From NCBI GenBank assembly GCA_016177765.1, contig JACOUP010000008.1, positions 641,165 through 705,164 on the forward strand: 64,000 nt of DNA. Reading direction: 5' to 3'. The notes under the pieces are model-generated. The model was not told where the DNA came from, did no database searches, and worked only from the letters and a program-made list of their open reading frames with translations. Of this stretch, positions 3,743 through 56,255 are shown piece after piece (the stretch's first letter is position 1; the number at the start of each line of letters is the position of its first letter). The position numbers were made by a program, and so were the translations under genes. The stretch is from Deltaproteobacteria bacterium. GTDB lineage: Bacteria > UBA10199 > JACPAL01 > JACOUP01.

Positions 3743-6700
3743 TTATTGGTCTATCAGGGAACAGCCAGCTAGTGGCAGAGCGCCTCCTGAACCAGGGTTT
3801 CCTCCAGAACCTGTTGTGGAACCTTCATTATCATTGGCACCACTGGTAGTATCACCGGCAGGGGCCGATTGGTCCGGCTCCGGTTTTTTGGGCTCCTCAG
3901 GGATTCCCGGCCCTGGATTTTCCCCATCCTTGACGCAATCCCCCTGGGTATCCCCTTGGGCCAAATGGGCTTCCACGGCGGCCGAAGCGACGCAAATTTC
4001 GTGTTGTTGTGGCCTCCCTGCCAAGTGGCAAAGGGTAACCTTCCCCTCTTTGCAGACCGGTTTTCCGCTCCCTTTATCCTCGTGATTACAGGGATCCCCC
4101 TCGTTGTCCTGTAGTGAACCGTCGGCGCAATCGTTGTGGTTGCAAACGTCCCCGACGGCGTCCTCGAGTGAAAGATCGGGGCAATCGTTAGGAACACAGG
4201 CATCGCCGACCGCATCCCCCGGCGAACCGTCAAAACAGTCTTCATGATTGCAAACATCCCCAGCCCCATCCTGAAGCGAACCGTCGGCGCAATCATTGTG
4301 GAGACAAGGATCCCCCAGATTGTCGCGCAATGTGAAGTCGGAACAGTCGGAATGATTGCAGGCATCCCCCACGGTATCGCGCAAACTCAAGTCGGGACAG
4401 TCATCGTGGTTACAAGGGTCTCCCACTTCATCATTCGGTTCGAAGGGACAGGAGTCTGACTCGTCGGCCACGCCATCCGCATCCTCGTCATGATTGCAGG
4501 GATCGCTGACAAGGTCGTACGGGGTCCCGTTCGGACAGTCACTATGATTACAGGGATCCCCCTCGTTATCCTGTAGCGAACCATCAACACAATCCGTATG
4601 ATTACAGGGCTCGCCGACCGCATCCTGCAATGAGAGGTCGGCACAATCGTTGTGGACACAGGCCTCCCCTGTTGCATCGACCGGGGAACCATCGGCACAA
4701 TCCCCATGATTACAGGGCTCGCCGGCAACATCTTGCAGGGAACCGTCGGCACAATCGTTATGCAGGCAGGAATCTCCGGTGCTATCCTGGGCAGAACCGT
4801 CGGCACAATCATTGTGATCGCAAACATTACCCGCGGTATCCTGTTCCGAGAAATCAGGACAATCATTGTGAATACAAGGATCTCCTAACGGGTCTTCCAG
4901 AGAGAGGTCGGCGCAATCATTATGAACGCAGGAATCCCCAACCCCGTCCTGCCAGGAACCATCCTCACAATCGTCGTGATTACACGCATCACCCACACTA
5001 TCTTGTGAAGAACGATCGGCACAGTCGTTTGGATTGCAGGGATCACCGATCCCATCATCGGCTATAAAAGGGCAGGAATCATCGCTGTCGGCGATGCCAT
5101 CGTTATCTTCGTCATGATCGCAGACCTCCCCCACACCATCTTGTGCCGACCGATCAGAACAGTCGTTGTGATTGCAGGCGTCCCCCACAGAGTCGCGCGT
5201 TGAGAGATCAGAGCAATCATTGTGGTTGCAAGGATCCCCCACGGCGTCATTCAGATCAAACGGGCAGGCATCCGAAATGTCCGGAGCCCCATCATTGTCG
5301 TCATCCGGCTCGCAAACATCGCCGTAGGGATCGCCATCAAAATTGGCCTGATCGGGATTCGGCTGTAACAGGCAATTATCTTGATCAAACGGAACCTCAT
5401 CCCCGTCTCCGTCATAGTCTGCCGGGAGATCGCTCAAGTTCAGGATCTGTCCGGTGTCGGTCAAGACAAAGATAAGGTTGGCGCTCCCGGCAGACCATGG
5501 ATCAGGCAGGGCTCCGGTTAAAGTCGTACCATTGATGTTCAAAGAACGGTGGATTATCGCCTGATCCCCGTCACGAGAAGCGGCCCAATCGCTTTCACCG
5601 GCGCTGGCATAAACCTTATGGTAGGAGGCATTCATCTGATAAATGCCGGGCGACACACCCTCAAAGAGCACCGGGAAGCCACTCCGCCCGTCATTCCACC
5701 ATTCATCCGACGACGACATATCGGAAATAACGGAAAGCACTGGCCGGTCGGAGGTCACGTAGATATCAAATGTTCCTGGGTTGGCCCCTGGATAGACCAT
5801 TGGCACCGCCGGTTGAACAGGGAGGGAGGTGGCATCCAGCACCCGTCCATCCGGCATCACCATCACCATCAAATGCTGATGGCCCGAATCATCCATCAGA
5901 GGATGCGTCAACGGAACCCCATTGGCCGAAAGCCCCCAGAGAATGGTCTGATTATCGGTCATCCAACCGGATTCCGGACAGCTCCCCTCCTCGTTGGAAC
6001 AGGCCGACACCCGATAGAGTCCCGGCGGGACGTTATCAAAGACCGCCTCCGGGCCGGAGTGGTACTCGGCCGCCTCCCACCAAACCGGTCCATGCATTTC
6101 AGAGATAGCGAAGCTGAGCGACTTCTCACCGGTGATCACGACCCGCAGCGTCCCTGGGGTACTCCCTTGAACAGTGTCCACGACGCCATCCTGGTTCAGA
6201 TCGGGGGGGACCGAAGAGGCGTCATGCGGGTTTGTCGCAAAATAAATCTCCGTGAAGTCATAAAAACCGTCATTGTCATCATCCCAGTCGACATTGTCCC
6301 CCAAACCGTCCCCATCGGTATCGACCGATTCGTTCGGGTCAAGTGGGAATTGATCGGAGTTATCCGCCACACCATCTCCATCTTCATCATGGTTGCAGGG
6401 ATCACCAATCCCATCCTGGGTCGAGAGATCGGCACAGTCGTTATGATTACAGGCATCACCAATCGCATCACGCACTGAAAGGTCGGCACAGTCATTGTGA
6501 TTACAGGCATCACCAACGGTATCGGGCATCGAACGATCGGCACAGTCGTTGTGGTTGCAGGCATCACCAATCGCATCCTGGGCTGAAAGATCAGAGCAAT
6601 CACCGTGATTACAGGCATCACCAATCGCATCCTGGGCTGAAAGATCAGAGCAATCACCGTGATTACAGGGCTCACCAACGGCATCTTGAGCCGAGAGATC

Positions 6701-39501: not shown

Positions 39502-39648
39502 CCCGACCGTGTCAATAAAAACAAACTGACTTTGTCAGACATACCTCTCAAAATGAACATGCTCCTTGGCAAAACCGATCTCGACCGCTGTTTTTTTCGA
39601 TAAAATACACCTCGACAACAATTTCTGATATAGGTATATTCAACCAAT

Positions 39649-39939
39649 ATGAAGGCCGTCCTGGTCTATTGGCACAAAGCGAGACTTCACGGCCGGTATG
39701 TGCTTGAAATGGAGATTCACAGTGTTGGTCGTTCGGTAAAATACCCGGATGGCGTCAAGTACGGGCTTATTTTAACCGACTTACGTAGCGGCAAAAGGGT
39801 CCTGATGGATAATCATCACCCAAAAGGCCCTCATATTCATTTGAATGGTCAAGAAATACCTTATCAATACAGTGATGAGGAAAAATTGATTCAAGATTTC
39901 AAGGCTTTGGTATTGGAAAACATGGGGGTGAAGATATGA
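39649..39939 (+). CDS. Small uncharacterised protein of 96 aa, the first gene of a low-GC two-gene cassette.
   Basis: ATG 39649. Its stop overlaps the next ATG (ATGA). GC is about 42% against a higher-GC background. Confidence 0.55.
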   Translation: MKAVLVYWHKARLHGRYVLEMEIHSVGRSVKYPDGVKYGLILTDLRSGKRVLMDNHHPKGPHIHLNGQEIPYQYSDEEKLIQDFKALVLENMGVKI

Positions 39940-40301
39940 AACATCTCATCGTATCACTGAAAACCGCTGATGAGGTCTTGGATGATTTCAAAAAGGCGTT
40001 TCGTAAAGCAAAGAAGGGAAGTTTTAAACAACCTCATTATGAAATCAGCTTTGACAACAAAAACGACTTTGATCGCTTTGCCAGAAACTTGCACGTGCTG
40101 AAGTACATTCTTATCTTCAAACCAAAATCGATTTACGAACTAGCAAAGATTACAAGGATGGATGTTTCGAACTTGAATAAGATCATCCTCTTCTTTGAAA
40201 AAGCTGGTGCCCTCAGCGTCAAAACGTCCAAAGTTTCTGGACGGACAGTAAAAAGACCAGTTGTCGAATACGACACGGTCAAATTTAACCTGGCCGCGTG
40301 A
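39936..40301 (+). CDS. Small winged-HTH DNA-binding protein of 121 aa.
   Basis: IYELAKITRMDVSNLNKIILFFEKAGAL is an HTH-like segment. The gene is coupled to the upstream gene. Confidence 0.55.
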   Translation: MKHLIVSLKTADEVLDDFKKAFRKAKKGSFKQPHYEISFDNKNDFDRFARNLHVLKYILIFKPKSIYELAKITRMDVSNLNKIILFFEKAGALSVKTSKVSGRTVKRPVVEYDTVKFNLAA

Positions 40302-40340
40302 ATGTAGCTGGGGAATGATAAACCTCAATTCCGCACCTCT

Positions 40341-40450
40341 TTCCCCTCCCCCTTGATGGGGGAGGGTGAGGGAGAGGGTGATAAGAAAAATAGAGTGAAA
40401 GAATCTTCCGGGACCACCCTCCCTTTCATTCCCTCCCGTCAAGGGAGGGA
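40341..40450. repeat. Intergenic C-tract/G-tract hairpin element, copy A.
   Basis: cccctccccc-ttgat-gggggaggg and ccctccc-gtcaa-gggaggg hairpins, with the flanking G-tract run gggggagggtgagggagaggg. Confidence 0.7.
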
Positions 40451-40507
40451 AAATTTTAAGGGAATTTCAACTGGAATTAAGGATAAAAAGGAAGTTATAT
40501 GCCCCAA

Positions 40508-41098
40508 TTATTCTAAAGGTCTTGTTTCTGAGTTCAAAGCTGACTGAGCTGCGGCAGTTTTGGACGTTATGAATTTTGCACCAAAATATATCGAAGATAG
40601 ATACGTCATAACAGTGACAACAACCAATCCCCAATAGAGTGTTGTGTTCAGTATTACATTCGACTTCTTTTTGAAAGCCTTAGCAATATTGGTTTTTGTA
40701 TCAACTAAATATTTCAATTGAGAATCTATTTTGTAAAAATAGTCTCCCTTTTGATCAGTGCTCATTCCGCTGAGGCTAGGGTTATTTTGGTTATCGAACA
40801 AGAGTCTTTCAAATCTCAGATTTTCCTCAATATACCAATTGTAAAATTCAGTAAGCTTGGCATCAATCACCGTTGTTCTCCATAAATATAGTAGACTAAA
40901 CATGAAACAGATGCCAAAGCCCCACCATACAAACTCGAGCAGAGAACTCACTCCAGCAAGGTGTCCAAGGAGCGATTGGGTAAATAGGAAACCTAGAACG
41001 GTCGCATCAAGTCCTGAAAGAAAATATACCAGTTTATATGAATTACTCAGTACGTTTGACTGTTTACTGATGATAGCATCATACGAGATGGCAAGCAT
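40508..41098 (-). CDS. Low-GC hypothetical 3-TM membrane protein.
   Basis: GC is about 35%. It has two N-terminal TM helices, a soluble middle and a C-terminal TM helix. It is convergent with the two-gene cassette. Confidence 0.45.
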   Translation of the reverse strand: MLAISYDAIISKQSNVLSNSYKLVYFLSGLDATVLGFLFTQSLLGHLAGVSSLLEFVWWGFGICFMFSLLYLWRTTVIDAKLTEFYNWYIEENLRFERLLFDNQNNPSLSGMSTDQKGDYFYKIDSQLKYLVDTKTNIAKAFKKKSNVILNTTLYWGLVVVTVMTYLSSIYFGAKFITSKTAAAQSALNSETRPLE

Positions 41099-41136
41099 AA
41101 TTAGGTTGTTCTATCTACTGCTGTTGCGTTTCCAGT

Positions 41137-41856
41137 CTAAACATACTTCTCAAAATGGACATGCCCTTTGTCAAAGCCGATCTCTGCGGCTGCTTTTTCG
41201 ACAGCCGTGATCATCGGGATAAGGCCACAGACGTAGATCTGTTTTCCTTCCGGTCTGACCCTCCTTTTCAAAACATCTTGCACATAACCAACCTCCCCGG
41301 CCCACCCCGACGGCCCCTGTTTTTGGGGCCGTGAAACGACAGGAATATAGCAAAAATTCTTGTGAAACGCTGAAAGTTTCCGCCATTCCTCATCGTAGAG
41401 AATTTCATTTTCGTAACGAACGCCAAAAATAAGAGTGATCTCTCTCTGACATTTTTTATGGAAAAGTTCCAGGATCATGCTCCGGAGTGGGGCCAGTCCA
41501 GTCCCGGTCGCGATGAAAATCGGATTATAATCGACCGGCTCTTTTATCACAAACCCGCCGTAAGGAAAGGTGATCACCACCTTATCCCCTTTCTTTAAAC
41601 TCCAGAACCAGTTTGTCGCGGCCCCCCCTTCGACCCGTTTAATGCAGAGATCAATGGTTCCCGTTTCATAGGGGGCTGAGGCGATCGAATACGGTTTGCG
41701 GAGGATTTTTCCCGGTTGAGGGATATGGATGGAACAGAACTGCCCTCCCTTGAAGGACACCCACTTCCCCTCCGGACAGTGGAGATGGAAGGTCCGGACG
41801 GTGGGCGTCAGCTCAACCACCTTTTCCAACCGGGTTGTGATCGGCTCGAGGGGCAT
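41137..41856 (-). CDS. Ferredoxin-NADP reductase-like FAD/NAD(P)-binding oxidoreductase.
   Basis: RKPYSIAS is the RxYS FAD motif and GTGLAP the NAD(P) motif. Start re-derived at MPLEP. Confidence 0.75.
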   Translation of the reverse strand: MPLEPITTRLEKVVELTPTVRTFHLHCPEGKWVSFKGGQFCSIHIPQPGKILRKPYSIASAPYETGTIDLCIKRVEGGAATNWFWSLKKGDKVVITFPYGGFVIKEPVDYNPIFIATGTGLAPLRSMILELFHKKCQREITLIFGVRYENEILYDEEWRKLSAFHKNFCYIPVVSRPQKQGPSGWAGEVGYVQDVLKRRVRPEGKQIYVCGLIPMITAVEKAAAEIGFDKGHVHFEKYV

Positions 41857-41860
41857 CCTT

Positions 41861-42061
41861 CTATAAAGGTGTTTTGATCCCGATCGCTCGAAGGGCACAC
41901 CACCCTTTTTTCCCCTCGTAGATCATAAAGGCCCCAAGGCCGATCATCGTCAAACCCACCGGAGGGATCAAAAGAAGCGGCAGACCCAAACCGGCCAGCA
42001 CCGAACCGGCGATGATCCGCACCTTCTTCCCTTTTTGATCAATATTGCAAGTCTGTTTCAT
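41861..42061 (-). CDS. Small membrane protein, DUF2892/YgaP-like.
   Basis: IDQKGKKVRIIAGSVLAGLGL followed by a second TM helix. Start re-derived at MKQTCN. Confidence 0.4.
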   Translation of the reverse strand: MKQTCNIDQKGKKVRIIAGSVLAGLGLPLLLIPPVGLTMIGLGAFMIYEGKKGWCALRAIGIKTPL

Positions 42062-42087
42062 CCATGCGACGCTAACACCAGATTCAA

Positions 42088-43035
42088 ATGCGAGTAAATA
42101 CAAAAATAATTAAAGAAAGGGCCCACGAAGTGGGCTTTGAACTGGTTGGCATCGTCCCAGTGAAGCCGGTCCCCGATATCACCTTTTTTCAGAACTGGCT
42201 TTCCCGCGGCTACCACGGAACGATGACTTATTTGGAAAAGGGAATGGAAAAAAGGGCCGATCCCGAAAAAATCCTGCCAGGCGTCCGGTCGGTCATCTGC
42301 TGTGGGATGAATTACCATACCGGTCAGCAACGTTCCATTGATCAAAAATCCCCCGACAGGGGGTGGATTTCGGCCTACGCCTGGGGGGAAGATTATCACG
42401 AGCTCGTCGGCGACAAGCTCCAGAAGTTAGAGAAATTCATCCATCAGGAAGCGGGCCCCACGGTCAAAACTAAAAGTTATACCGATACCGGGGCGATCCT
42501 CGAACGAAGTTATGCCGCCCGTGCCGGTCTCGGCTGGATCGGAAAGAATAGTTGCCTCATCAATAACGGGATCGGTTCTTTTTTCTTTTTGGGGGAAATC
42601 CTGACAACACTCGAACTCGACTACGACAAACCAACCTTTGACCAGTGCGGAAGTTGCAACAAGTGCCTCGATGCCTGCCCGACCGGGGCGCTGGTGGAAC
42701 CGTATCTGCTCGATGCCCGTCGCTGTATCGCCTACCTGACCGTCGAGTATCGCGGAGAATTGGGGGAGTTTGCTGATAAGCTGGAAGGAAATGTCGCCGG
42801 TTGTGATATCTGTCAGGAGGTCTGCCCCTACAATGAAAAAATTCCGGTCACCGCCGAAAAACGGTTCTACCCCAGAGAAGGGCTAGTCGCCCCGCATCTT
42901 GAAACACTGATCGGCTCTCAAAGTCCGGTGCCACGGATTAAACAGAAAGAGTGGGAGAGAAATCTCAAGGTTGTAGATAGCCATTTTCCAAAAACCAGCG
43001 GTAAGCCTCTTCAATCGTCTTCCGGAACGGGGTGA
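42088..43035 (+). CDS. queG: Epoxyqueuosine reductase QueG.
   Basis: The N-terminus ELGFDLVGI..., two ferredoxin-type clusters CGSCNKCLDACP and CDICQEVCP. Confidence 0.8.
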   Translation: MRVNTKIIKERAHEVGFELVGIVPVKPVPDITFFQNWLSRGYHGTMTYLEKGMEKRADPEKILPGVRSVICCGMNYHTGQQRSIDQKSPDRGWISAYAWGEDYHELVGDKLQKLEKFIHQEAGPTVKTKSYTDTGAILERSYAARAGLGWIGKNSCLINNGIGSFFFLGEILTTLELDYDKPTFDQCGSCNKCLDACPTGALVEPYLLDARRCIAYLTVEYRGELGEFADKLEGNVAGCDICQEVCPYNEKIPVTAEKRFYPREGLVAPHLETLIGSQSPVPRIKQKEWERNLKVVDSHFPKTSGKPLQSSSGTG

Positions 43036-56155: not shown

Positions 56156-56164
56156 ACCCCCTCA

Positions 56165-56255
56165 CCCTGACCCTCTCCCGCCAGGGGAGAGGGAAATATC
56201 TTTTAATAAAATTTCCCCTCCCTTGATGGGAGGGGATGAAGGGGAGGGTGAAAGT
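56165..56255. repeat. Intergenic hairpin element, copy C, between convergent genes.
   Basis: ccctctccc-gccag-gggagaggg and cccctccc-ttgat-gggagggg hairpins, followed by atgaaggggagggtg. Confidence 0.7.

What the first reader, a model, noticed from the sequence alone, without database searches (positions are those of the whole stretch)
39649..41100. Low-GC islet: coupled 96-aa + 121-aa wHTH gene pair facing a low-GC 3-TM membrane protein gene
GC drops to about 35-42% across these three genes. The first two overlap (ATGA) in the way toxin-antitoxin or regulator-effector pairs do. The second has a winged-HTH-like segment, and the first has a His-rich core (DNHHPKGPHIH) with no known motif. The convergent gene encodes a small membrane protein resembling abortive-infection effectors. 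The islet is bounded on the right-hand side of the pair by copy A of the GC-hairpin element. The composition and architecture suggest a horizontally acquired stress or defence module.
Basis: partly seen in the sequence, partly recalled or inferred. Interest (0 to 1): 0.55.

Follow-up and report, generated by a model that had tools for sequence, protein, structure and literature searches.

The report
TumE–TumA toxin–antitoxin pair in inserted islet
The two overlapping genes are an untested branch of the recently described TumE–TumA toxin–antitoxin family, sitting in a 1.6-kb piece of foreign DNA inserted behind a housekeeping gene; the neighbouring membrane-protein gene is an unrelated orphan, so this is a fairly ordinary selfish gene pair, not a three-gene defence system.

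Summary
Three ORFs lie at the stated coordinates, and they sit in the lowest-GC stretch of the window (0.40 against 0.527).

- **P1 (96 aa)** is a compact member of the TumE/DUF6516 toxin family.
- **P2 (121 aa)** is an HVO_A0114 winged-helix protein.
- **The pair is a unit.** P2 follows P1 in 85 of 85 related loci that have room, with an ATGA junction in 78 of 80. Neighbourhoods are unrelated. Both genes are under strong purifying selection.
- **New here: a likely operator.** A palindrome, ATATWGGT-N7/8-ACCAATAT, is conserved in 70 of 83 loci. It spans the −10 box and the P1 start codon. P1 lacks a Shine–Dalgarno sequence and is probably leaderless. P2 has one.
- **New here: an insertion.** A 58-nt direct repeat duplicates the 3' end of the adjacent oxidoreductase gene and brackets the islet. 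Relatives have the uninterrupted site.
- **P3, the membrane protein, is not part of the module.** It is an ORFan absent from all 86 related loci. Defence-system profiles gave no supported hit.

Verdict: a new member of a known kind, most likely an autoregulated type II toxin–antitoxin pair. Toxicity is inferred, not shown.

The parts
39539..39596 (-). Left copy of the 58-nt direct repeat. It is a non-functional spare copy of the 3' end of the oxidoreductase gene, stop codon included, and reads ...KKTAVEIGFAKEHVHFERYV* on the minus strand.
   Evidence: the repeat finder family D1: 83% identical to 41141-41198, spacing 1602 nt. Translation. Matches the conserved C-terminus of orthologues.
39612..39640 (+). 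Sigma-70-type promoter of the pair: -35 TCGACA (39612-39617), 17-nt spacer, -10 TATATT (39635-39640). The -10 box ends 8 nt before the P1 ATG, so the mRNA is probably leaderless or nearly so.
   Evidence: Best promoter-like site in the islet, 10 of 12 matches. The -35 and -10 positions are conserved in unrelated loci. P1 has a core Shine-Dalgarno in only 2 of 80 loci.
39628..39650 (+). Putative operator: inverted repeat ATATAGGT - ATATTCA - ACCAATAT. It spans the -10 box, and its right arm ends in the first two bases of the P1 start codon.
   Evidence: The pattern ATATWGGT-N7/8-ACCAATAT (at most 1 mismatch per arm) is found upstream of P1 in 70 of 83 loci. The right arm runs into the ATG in 49. 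It is virtually absent elsewhere in 1.4 Mb of loci. Binding by P2 is inferred.
39649..39939 (+). P1, 96 aa: compact TumE/DUF6516-family protein and putative toxin. Conserved core D54-N55-x3-K59-G60-x-H62-x-H64.
   Evidence: 312 homologues, some named DUF6516 or carrying PF20126. 14 of 32 close and 36 of 44 distant relatives hit Pfam 'Toxin TumE'. AF2 model pLDDT 95.4. Non-synonymous change is far below synonymous change, i.e. purifying selection.
39936..40301 (+). P2, 121 aa: HVO_A0114-family winged-helix DNA-binding protein, putative antitoxin and autorepressor. Its Shine-Dalgarno (GGGGGTGAAG) lies inside the end of P1.
   Evidence: PF25212 at 30.7 bits against a 27.6 cut-off. 29 of 29 relatives hit it. 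phrog_11214 at 3e-13. Directly downstream of P1 in 85 of 85 loci. Core SD in 72 of 80 loci, ATGA junction in 78 of 80.
40337..40452 (.). Two GC-rich REP-like hairpins between the convergent P2 and P3 genes. Probably a host-genome repeat acting as a bidirectional terminator; not part of the conserved cassette.
   Evidence: Fold of 40299-40510: -80 kcal/mol, z -3.4. A similar element lies at 56207-56251. No Rfam family reaches threshold. Conservation among loci stops at the P2 stop codon.
40508..41098 (-). P3, 196 aa: orphan membrane protein with 2-3 hydrophobic segments. It is cargo of the islet and not linked to the pair elsewhere.
   Evidence: The only match in 5.8 billion proteins is itself. 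No tblastn hit in 86 loci, phages or plasmids. Open stretch longer than all 1000 shuffles; GC3 0.37.
41141..41198 (-). Right copy of the 58-nt direct repeat. It forms the functional 3' end of the FAD/NAD-binding oxidoreductase gene (longest ORF 41137-41898, minus strand; called at 239 aa in the public record).
   Evidence: Relatives L089 and L090 have this gene followed directly by the Urate_ox_N gene.

Best explanation
P1 and P2 form a self-contained type II toxin-antitoxin cassette of about 700 bp from the TumE-TumA superfamily, arranged toxin first.

P1 is the TumE-type toxin. By homology with the tested members it should block protein synthesis. Its invariant Asp/His cluster (D54, H62, H64, with N55, K59 and G60) is the likely active site.

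P2 is the antitoxin. I infer that its N-terminal part neutralises P1. I also infer that its HVO_A0114 winged-helix domain binds, as a dimer, the palindrome ATATAGGT-N7-ACCAATAT. That palindrome covers the -10 box and the start codon, so binding would shut off the operon's own promoter.

P1 is translated from a leaderless, Shine-Dalgarno-less start. P2 has a strong Shine-Dalgarno sequence and an ATGA-coupled start. That should keep antitoxin in excess over toxin.

In this genome the cassette lies in a 1.6-kb islet together with an unrelated orphan membrane-protein gene and host-type hairpin repeats. The islet was inserted immediately behind an oxidoreductase gene, and the last ~58 nt of that gene were duplicated in the process.

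Shown here: family membership by homology, strict pairing, the conserved palindrome, the translation signals, the insertion and its repeat. Inferred: toxicity, neutralisation, DNA binding, leaderless transcription.
For: P1 homology. There are 312 homologues at 56-100% identity, several named DUF6516 or carrying PF20126. 14 of 32 close relatives (best E 4.9e-11) and 36 of 44 distant relatives (best E 2.4e-16) hit Pfam 'Toxin TumE'. A 36%-identical plasmid homologue with the same gene layout scores 46.2 bits against a 23.4 cut-off and covers model positions 3-80 of 81.

TumE is an experimentally validated translation-targeting toxin with diverse antitoxins (PMC10584680).

P2 is in PF25212 above the gathering score, as are 29 of 29 relatives.

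Pairing: 85 of 85 loci. ATGA junction in 78 of 80. No recurrent third gene. Neighbourhoods are unrelated. Other TA genes lie nearby in some loci. Some MAGs carry two copies (contig names).

Operator palindrome in 70 of 83 loci with essentially no background. Promoter. Shine-Dalgarno asymmetry 2 of 80 against 72 of 80. Purifying selection on both genes.

Insertion: empty sites in L089 and L090, the 58-nt repeat, GC minimum of the window, foreign GC3.
Against: The window P1 itself does not reach any Pfam or NCBIfam threshold; membership rests on its close relatives.

Only subcluster 1a TumE proteins (gammaproteobacterial, antitoxin upstream) were tested experimentally. This branch has the opposite gene order and a different partner family, and is untested.

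The predicted fold has six strands and one helix, not the seven strands and two helices described for TumE. I could not superpose the models because the AlphaFold database library was unavailable.

The pair is unusually well conserved and fixed in this population. That would also fit a non-toxic regulatory pair.

The P2 model is poor (pLDDT 66.9). No complex model could be made.
Confidence: 0.7

Rival explanations
1. One reading: the three genes form one horizontally acquired stress or defence module, in which the pair senses or regulates and the membrane protein P3 acts as an abortive-infection-type effector.
For: All three genes lie inside the same 1.6-kb insertion bracketed by one direct repeat, and all have foreign composition. 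P1 gives a marginal PADLOC hit, PDC-M43A at E 8e-4.
Against: P3 has no homologue anywhere: 5.8 billion proteins, phages and plasmids. It is absent from all 86 loci that carry the pair. No third gene family recurs next to the pair; the commonest is in 5 of 82 loci. None of the 43 relatives scanned shares the PADLOC hit. P3 matches no PADLOC, Pfam, NCBIfam or PHROG family. GC-rich repeats also found elsewhere in the genome separate P3 from the pair.
Confidence: 0.05
2. The pair is not a toxin-antitoxin system. It is a conserved chromosomal regulatory couple: a winged-helix repressor (P2) with a small non-toxic co-factor or ligand- or metal-binding partner (P1) that modulates its DNA binding. It would be kept for a cellular function, especially in Bdellovibrionota.
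For: Both proteins are under strong purifying selection, with saturated synonymous sites. The pair is fixed in the sampled population. It is concentrated in one broad lineage, Bdellovibrionota and allies. Toxicity has never been tested for this branch. The His/Asp cluster could equally bind a metal, and the published function predictions for some TumE clusters include transition-metal binding.
Against: There is homology to a family in which all six tested members were toxic and were neutralised by their partners. The genomic location differs in almost every locus, there is no conserved regulated neighbour, and the operator lies on the pair's own promoter. This is the pattern of a selfish autoregulated cassette, not of a regulator with a target operon. 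Some genomes have more than one copy. GC is lower than the flanks in 69 of 77 loci. The pair also occurs on a conjugative plasmid among other TA genes.
Confidence: 0.17
3. The islet is the decayed remnant of a larger integrative element, such as a genomic island or prophage, that integrated site-specifically into the 3' end of the oxidoreductase gene. The TA pair and P3 are the surviving cargo after the integrase was lost.
For: A direct repeat that duplicates the 3' end of a gene is the classic footprint of integrase-mediated insertion. The same geometry occurs at L011 with a different target gene. TA modules are often the last survivors of degraded elements (established knowledge).
Against: There is no integrase, transposase or phage gene in the islet or beside it. 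The repeats are only 83% identical, with mismatches spread throughout and no clear identical core. The conserved DNA among loci ends at the -35 box and at the P2 stop codon, with no shared element ends. This reading concerns how the islet arrived and is compatible with the best explanation of what the pair does.
Confidence: 0.25

Closest known systems
TumE-TumA toxin-antitoxin superfamily (DUF6516 / Pfam PF20126 'Toxin TumE'; Durairaj et al., Nature 2023, PMC10584680)
   Same: P1 is homologous to TumE through its close relatives. It is paired bicistronically with a small DNA-binding partner, has no detectable relative among solved structures, and carries a conserved His/Asp core consistent with the predicted hydrolase or metal site.
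   Different: The gene order is toxin first, whereas the paper reports DUF6516 predominantly downstream of its partner. The partner is an HVO_A0114 winged-helix protein, not the RelB-like or hypothetical partners of the tested subcluster 1a. P1 is only 96 aa, essentially the bare 81-position Pfam domain, with six strands and one helix predicted. This branch has no experimental data.
HVO_A0114 family (Pfam PF25212), putative winged-helix DNA-binding proteins
   Same: P2 and all 29 relatives tested match above or near the curated threshold over model positions 7-84 of 84. Ten of them also show weaker MarR-type similarity.
   Different: The papers searched attribute no function to the family. Here it is tied strictly to a TumE gene and to a conserved palindrome, which gives it a concrete proposed role as antitoxin and autorepressor.
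Toxin-first type II TA systems with a DNA-binding antitoxin (HigBA, MqsRA, HicAB, BrnTA); comparison from my own knowledge, not tested here
   Same: The toxin gene is upstream, the antitoxin has an HTH-type DNA-binding domain, and a palindromic operator overlaps the promoter.
   Different: No sequence or fold relationship to those toxins was found; the P1 fold search found no solved relative. The leaderless, SD-less toxin start combined with an SD-led antitoxin start is a particular feature of this family.

Membership tests
TumE toxin (Pfam PF20126 / DUF6516) | Sequence homology to the family, directly or through close relatives | tested here: met
   The window protein alone gives no hit even at E<=10. 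It is, however, 60-84% identical to proteins named DUF6516 or carrying PF20126. 14 of 32 close relatives (best 4.9e-11) and 36 of 44 relatives at 27-51% identity (best 2.4e-16) hit the model. A 36%-identical homologue scores 46.2 bits against a 23.4 cut-off over model positions 3-80 of 81.
TumE toxin (Pfam PF20126 / DUF6516) | Alpha+beta fold: antiparallel seven-stranded sheet packed by two helices, with no relative in the PDB | tested here: inconclusive
TumE-TumA toxin-antitoxin system | Conserved two-gene arrangement with a small partner gene | tested here: met
   A P2 homologue lies directly downstream in 85 of 85 loci with room. ATGA junction in 78 of 80. The order is reversed relative to the tested subcluster.
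TumE-TumA toxin-antitoxin system | The toxin arrests growth and inhibits translation, and the cognate partner neutralises it | not testable with these tools
   This needs expression and metabolic-labelling experiments. It has been shown only for six gammaproteobacterial subcluster-1a pairs.
HVO_A0114 family (Pfam PF25212) | Match to the family model at or above the gathering score | tested here: met
   30.7 bits against a 27.6 cut-off, residues 36-115 on model positions 7-84 of 84. 29 of 29 relatives match, best 5.4e-26.
Type II toxin-antitoxin systems (general) | Autoregulation through an operator in the module's own promoter | tested here: inconclusive
   A conserved palindrome overlaps the -10 box and start codon in 70 of 83 loci with negligible background. 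Promoter. Protein-DNA binding and repression cannot be tested here.
Known or candidate anti-phage defence systems (PADLOC-DB) | Significant match of the components to defence-system models | tested here: not met
   P2 and P3 have no hit. P1 has only PDC-M43A at E 8e-4, and none of the 43 relatives scanned shares it.
Integrase-borne genomic island | Flanking direct repeats that duplicate the target gene's 3' end | tested here: met
   58-nt repeat, 83% identical, spacing 1602 nt. Both copies encode the oxidoreductase C-terminus. Empty site in L089 and L090.
Integrase-borne genomic island | A site-specific recombinase gene within the element | tested here: not met
   The islet holds only P1, P2, the hairpins and P3. 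None matches a recombinase, and the adjacent genes scanned are the oxidoreductase, Urate_ox_N, an alpha/beta hydrolase, a YgaP-like membrane protein and QueG.

The most novel reading that the evidence does not exclude
The ~700-bp TumE/HVO_A0114 cassette may be a minimal mobile unit that spreads without a recombinase of its own. On this reading it leaves a genome together with ~60-70 nt of the neighbouring gene's 3' end and re-enters another genome by a single crossover at the orthologous gene end. That would duplicate the gene end, as seen in the window (58 nt, oxidoreductase) and independently at L011 (72 nt, a different gene). The repeat copies in the window differ mainly at synonymous sites (pN 0.13, pS 0.46), as expected if the spare copy came from a functional foreign orthologue. 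A leaderless toxin start embedded in the operator would make the unit self-sufficient wherever it lands.
Probability: 0.12. Interest if true: 0.6.

Novelty: new member of a known kind. Interest (0 to 1): 0.3.

Why it matters
The practical gain is annotation. P1 is 'hypothetical protein' in the public record, and the gene tables seen here show P2 only with a weak HVO_A0114 match. They can now be read as an untested, toxin-first branch of the TumE-TumA family. That branch is present in at least 203 species-level genomes, mostly predatory Bdellovibrionota and their relatives.

The analysis yields three concrete, testable features that I did not find in the papers searched:
- a strict TumE / HVO_A0114 partnership;
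- a conserved palindromic operator that overlaps the -10 box and the start codon;
- a leaderless toxin start paired with an SD-led antitoxin start.

It gives the HVO_A0114 family its first specific functional hypothesis. It also shows that the three-gene 'defence islet' reading should be dropped. None of this overturns current understanding.

Tried and rejected
- **Direct family scans of P1** (Pfam, NCBIfam) gave nothing. Membership had to be shown through relatives.
- **PADLOC.** The marginal PDC-M43A hit did not generalise, so it was rejected as evidence for defence.
- **Solved structures.** Sequence and profile searches for P1 and P2 found nothing significant. The 8cyk 'HALC1_878' hit is a computationally hallucinated design, so it is chance.
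- **Structure of P2.** The single-sequence model was poor, pLDDT 66.9, and I use it only as a rough secondary-structure guide.
- **Validated TumE sequences.** The paper's supplement lists accession numbers only, not sequences, so no direct alignment to tested toxins was possible.
- **Phage collection.** No P1 homologue, although weak or moderate PHROG families exist for both proteins.
- **Rfam on the islet.** Only sub-threshold chance hits on the hairpins.
- **Presence/absence polymorphism.** None was found in the source population.
- **Shared element ends.** None exist beyond the -35 box and the P2 stop codon.
Full report
**1. The observation**

The three ORFs are where the finding puts them:
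- P1 39649-39939 (+), 96 aa
- P2 39936-40301 (+), 121 aa
- P3 40508-41098 (-), 196 aa

P1 and P2 share the four bases ATGA. GC falls to 0.33-0.44 across the region. The 1544 nt between the repeats described in section 6 is the lowest-GC stretch of that length in the whole window: 0.402 against a mean of 0.527 and an sd of 0.026. Third-position GC is 0.49, 0.48 and 0.37 for P1, P2 and P3. In four neighbouring genes it is 0.59-0.67.

**2. What the pair is**

P2 matches Pfam HVO_A0114 (PF25212) above its curated cut-off, 30.7 against 27.6 bits. It also gives weaker MarR-type winged-helix matches and a match to phrog_11214 at 3e-13.

P1 alone matches no Pfam or NCBIfam model. It does have 312 homologues, nearly all exactly 96 aa. 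Several are named 'DUF6516 family protein' or carry PF20126. Scanning relatives one by one against Pfam 'Toxin TumE' gave these results:
- 14 of 32 close relatives hit, best E 4.9e-11.
- 36 of 44 relatives at 27-51% identity hit, best E 2.4e-16.
- The model has only 81 positions. A 94-aa relative covers positions 3-80 with residues 13-88. The 96-aa protein is therefore essentially the whole TumE domain.

DUF6516 was renamed TumE by Durairaj et al. (Nature 2023, PMC10584680). In that work six gammaproteobacterial members stopped E. coli growth, their partners (TumA) neutralised them, and one of them reduced 35S-methionine incorporation. The authors noted that the partners are diverse and that the toxin gene usually lies downstream of its partner. 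I found no later experimental paper on TumE and none on HVO_A0114.

**3. Conserved residues and fold**

D54 and H64 are invariant across the 44 distant relatives. N55, K59, G60, H62, G35, Y38, L80 and F84 are at least 90% conserved.

As reported for TumE, nothing in the PDB resembles it by fold (best Foldseek E 0.76) or by sequence or profile. A viral structure library gave nothing either.

**4. The pair is a strict, self-contained unit**

A scan of one genome per species found relatives of P1 in 203 genomes. Most are Bdellovibrionota, Bacteriovoracia or Oligoflexia. Some are Myxococcota, unclassified 'Deltaproteobacteria', Chlamydiae, Nitrospira and Elusimicrobia MAGs.

- In all 85 loci with room downstream, a P2 homologue follows immediately. 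The junction is ATGA in 78 of 80.
- P3 has no tblastn match in any of the 86 loci.
- No other gene family recurs next to the pair. The commonest is found in 5 of 82 loci and, judged from its sequence, looks like another toxin of the BrnT type.
- Neighbourhoods are unrelated: between pseudopilin genes and trigger factor, between pheT and pheS, and next to a PIN-domain gene.
- A 36%-identical pair with the same 4-base overlap lies on a conjugative Phyllobacterium plasmid, among VapBC and VbhA genes.
- Three MAGs contribute two loci each (contig names).
- The pair has lower GC than its flanks in 69 of 77 loci.
- Against the seven closest loci, synonymous sites are near saturation (pS 0.62-0.98) while non-synonymous differences are 0.07-0.18. 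Both genes are therefore maintained by selection, and the sampled copies diverged long ago.

**5. Regulatory anatomy (new here)**

Outside the coding sequence, the only DNA conserved between loci is about 45 nt upstream of the P1 ATG. Conservation stops exactly at the P2 stop codon.

The upstream stretch holds a -35 box (TCGACA in the window, TTGACA in others), a 17-nt spacer and a -10 box (TATATT, 39635-39640). It also holds an inverted repeat, ATAT(A/T)GGT-N7/8-ACCAATAT, at window 39628-39650.
- The palindrome occurs in 70 of 83 loci.
- Its right arm runs into the start codon in 49 loci.
- In 13 further loci the first match found lies 15-18 nt or more upstream of the ATG, and in several of those a second palindrome is visible at the ATG, with a -35-like TTGA.. 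hexamer in the upstream spacer.
- The pattern is essentially absent elsewhere in 1.4 Mb of locus DNA.

The -10 box ends 8 nt before the ATG, and P1 has a core Shine-Dalgarno in only 2 of 80 loci. P2 has one, inside the last codons of P1, in 72 of 80 loci.

I infer three things. P2 dimers bind the palindrome and repress the promoter. The P1 message is leaderless. The unequal translation signals keep the antitoxin in excess. These steps are inferred from conservation, not demonstrated.

**6. The islet is an insertion**

A 58-nt direct repeat (39539-39596 and 41141-41198, 83% identical, 1602 nt apart) brackets P1, P2, the hairpins and P3.
- The right copy is the working 3' end of the FAD/NAD-binding oxidoreductase gene.
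- The left copy is a spare coding end...AVEIGFAKEHVHFERYV*, that still matches the conserved C-terminus of orthologues.
- In two other species (L089 and L090, orthologues at 64% and 70% identity) the oxidoreductase gene is followed after 74-85 nt by the Urate_ox_N gene. That gene is the islet's left neighbour in the window. This is the empty site.

The two repeat copies differ more at synonymous than at non-synonymous sites (pN 0.13, pS 0.46, 19 codons). This hints that the spare copy came from a functional foreign orthologue and did not decay in place. The sample is small.

The same geometry occurs independently at L011. There a 72-nt repeat duplicates the 3' end of a different, convergent 312-aa gene. 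About 15 of 81 loci have some flanking repeat.

The islet contains no recombinase gene, so the insertion mechanism is unresolved. All ten contigs in the source population that carry the exact oxidoreductase also carry the islet.

**7. The other contents of the islet**

P3 is very probably a real gene, since its 200-codon open stretch beats all 1000 shuffles (maximum 163). It has two strong hydrophobic segments (about 47-78 and 148-177), and residues ~22-44 look like a weaker third by eye. It is an ORFan: it matches only itself among 5.8 billion proteins, and nothing in phages, plasmids, Pfam, NCBIfam, PHROGs or PADLOC. I found no support for an abortive-infection role.

The GC-rich hairpins (about 40337-40452; -80 kcal/mol for the 212-nt stretch containing them, z -3.4) resemble hairpins at 56160-56251, outside the islet. 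They match no Rfam family. I read them as a host REP-type repeat that also serves as a terminator between the convergent genes.

**8. Verdict**

The three-gene defence-module reading is not supported.

The best explanation is an autoregulated, toxin-first TumE-TumA-type toxin-antitoxin cassette (confidence 0.7). It is carried in a small insertion together with an unrelated orphan gene. The main rival is a non-toxic regulator pair (0.17).

It is a new member of a known kind. The strict HVO_A0114 partnership, the operator, the leaderless start and the gene-end duplication are useful details that I did not find described in the papers searched. They do not change the picture of what such modules are. 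Interest: 0.3.

Noticed in passing
window 56160-56251: A second site with the same kind of GC-rich hairpins (CCCTCTCCCGCCAGGGGAGAGGG; TTCCCCTCCCTTGATGGGAGGGGA) as those between P2 and P3. This looks like a genome-wide REP-type repeat family. Several public assemblies of this organism break at the hairpins (L101-L103 end there).
   Followed up: partly
L011 4834-4905 and 5678-5749: A 72-nt direct repeat (79% identical) brackets the pair. The right copy is the 3' end of a convergent 312-aa gene (...KTDKLKFFATGDHPME*). The left copy is a degenerate spare of the same end. This is the same geometry as in the window, with a different target gene.
   Followed up: partly
L005 / L006 / L010, pair at 4001-4653 (L005 coordinates): The cassette sits between pheT and pheS, inside the otherwise conserved thrS-infC-rpmI-rplT-pheS-pheT gene cluster and on the opposite strand.
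   Followed up: no
L028 4908-4995 and 5698-5753: The repeats flanking the pair include an operator-like ACCAATATG followed by a coding start, MTELQRRNGFSLDV, that looks like a pseudopilin leader. In this locus the usual palindrome upstream of P1 is missing. In the Chlamydiae MAG (L001/L008) the pair also lies just after pseudopilin genes.
   Followed up: no
window 41861-42103 (-): A small YgaP-like transmembrane protein gene (66-80 aa) lies between QueG and the oxidoreductase gene in this genome. In the relatives L087-L090 those two genes are directly adjacent. This is another small lineage-specific difference next to the islet.
   Followed up: no
L003 4288-4650 versus L004: The public gene table for the NCBI assembly shows no P2 homologue at this locus; it lists two short antisense ORFs instead. 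Yet tblastn finds an intact 121-aa P2 at 85% identity, and the gene table for the Logan assembly of the same sample does call it.
   Followed up: partly
L091 (Phyllobacterium zundukense plasmid NZ_CP017943.1, 148040-153303): A distant TumE + regulator pair lies in a cluster of addiction genes (VapBC, a VbhA antitoxin, DUF2958 and DUF2285 proteins) on a conjugative 586-kb plasmid.
   Followed up: no
loci L033/L073, L030/L074, L032/L065: Three MAGs each contribute two separate loci encoding the pair, so some genomes carry at least two copies.
   Followed up: no
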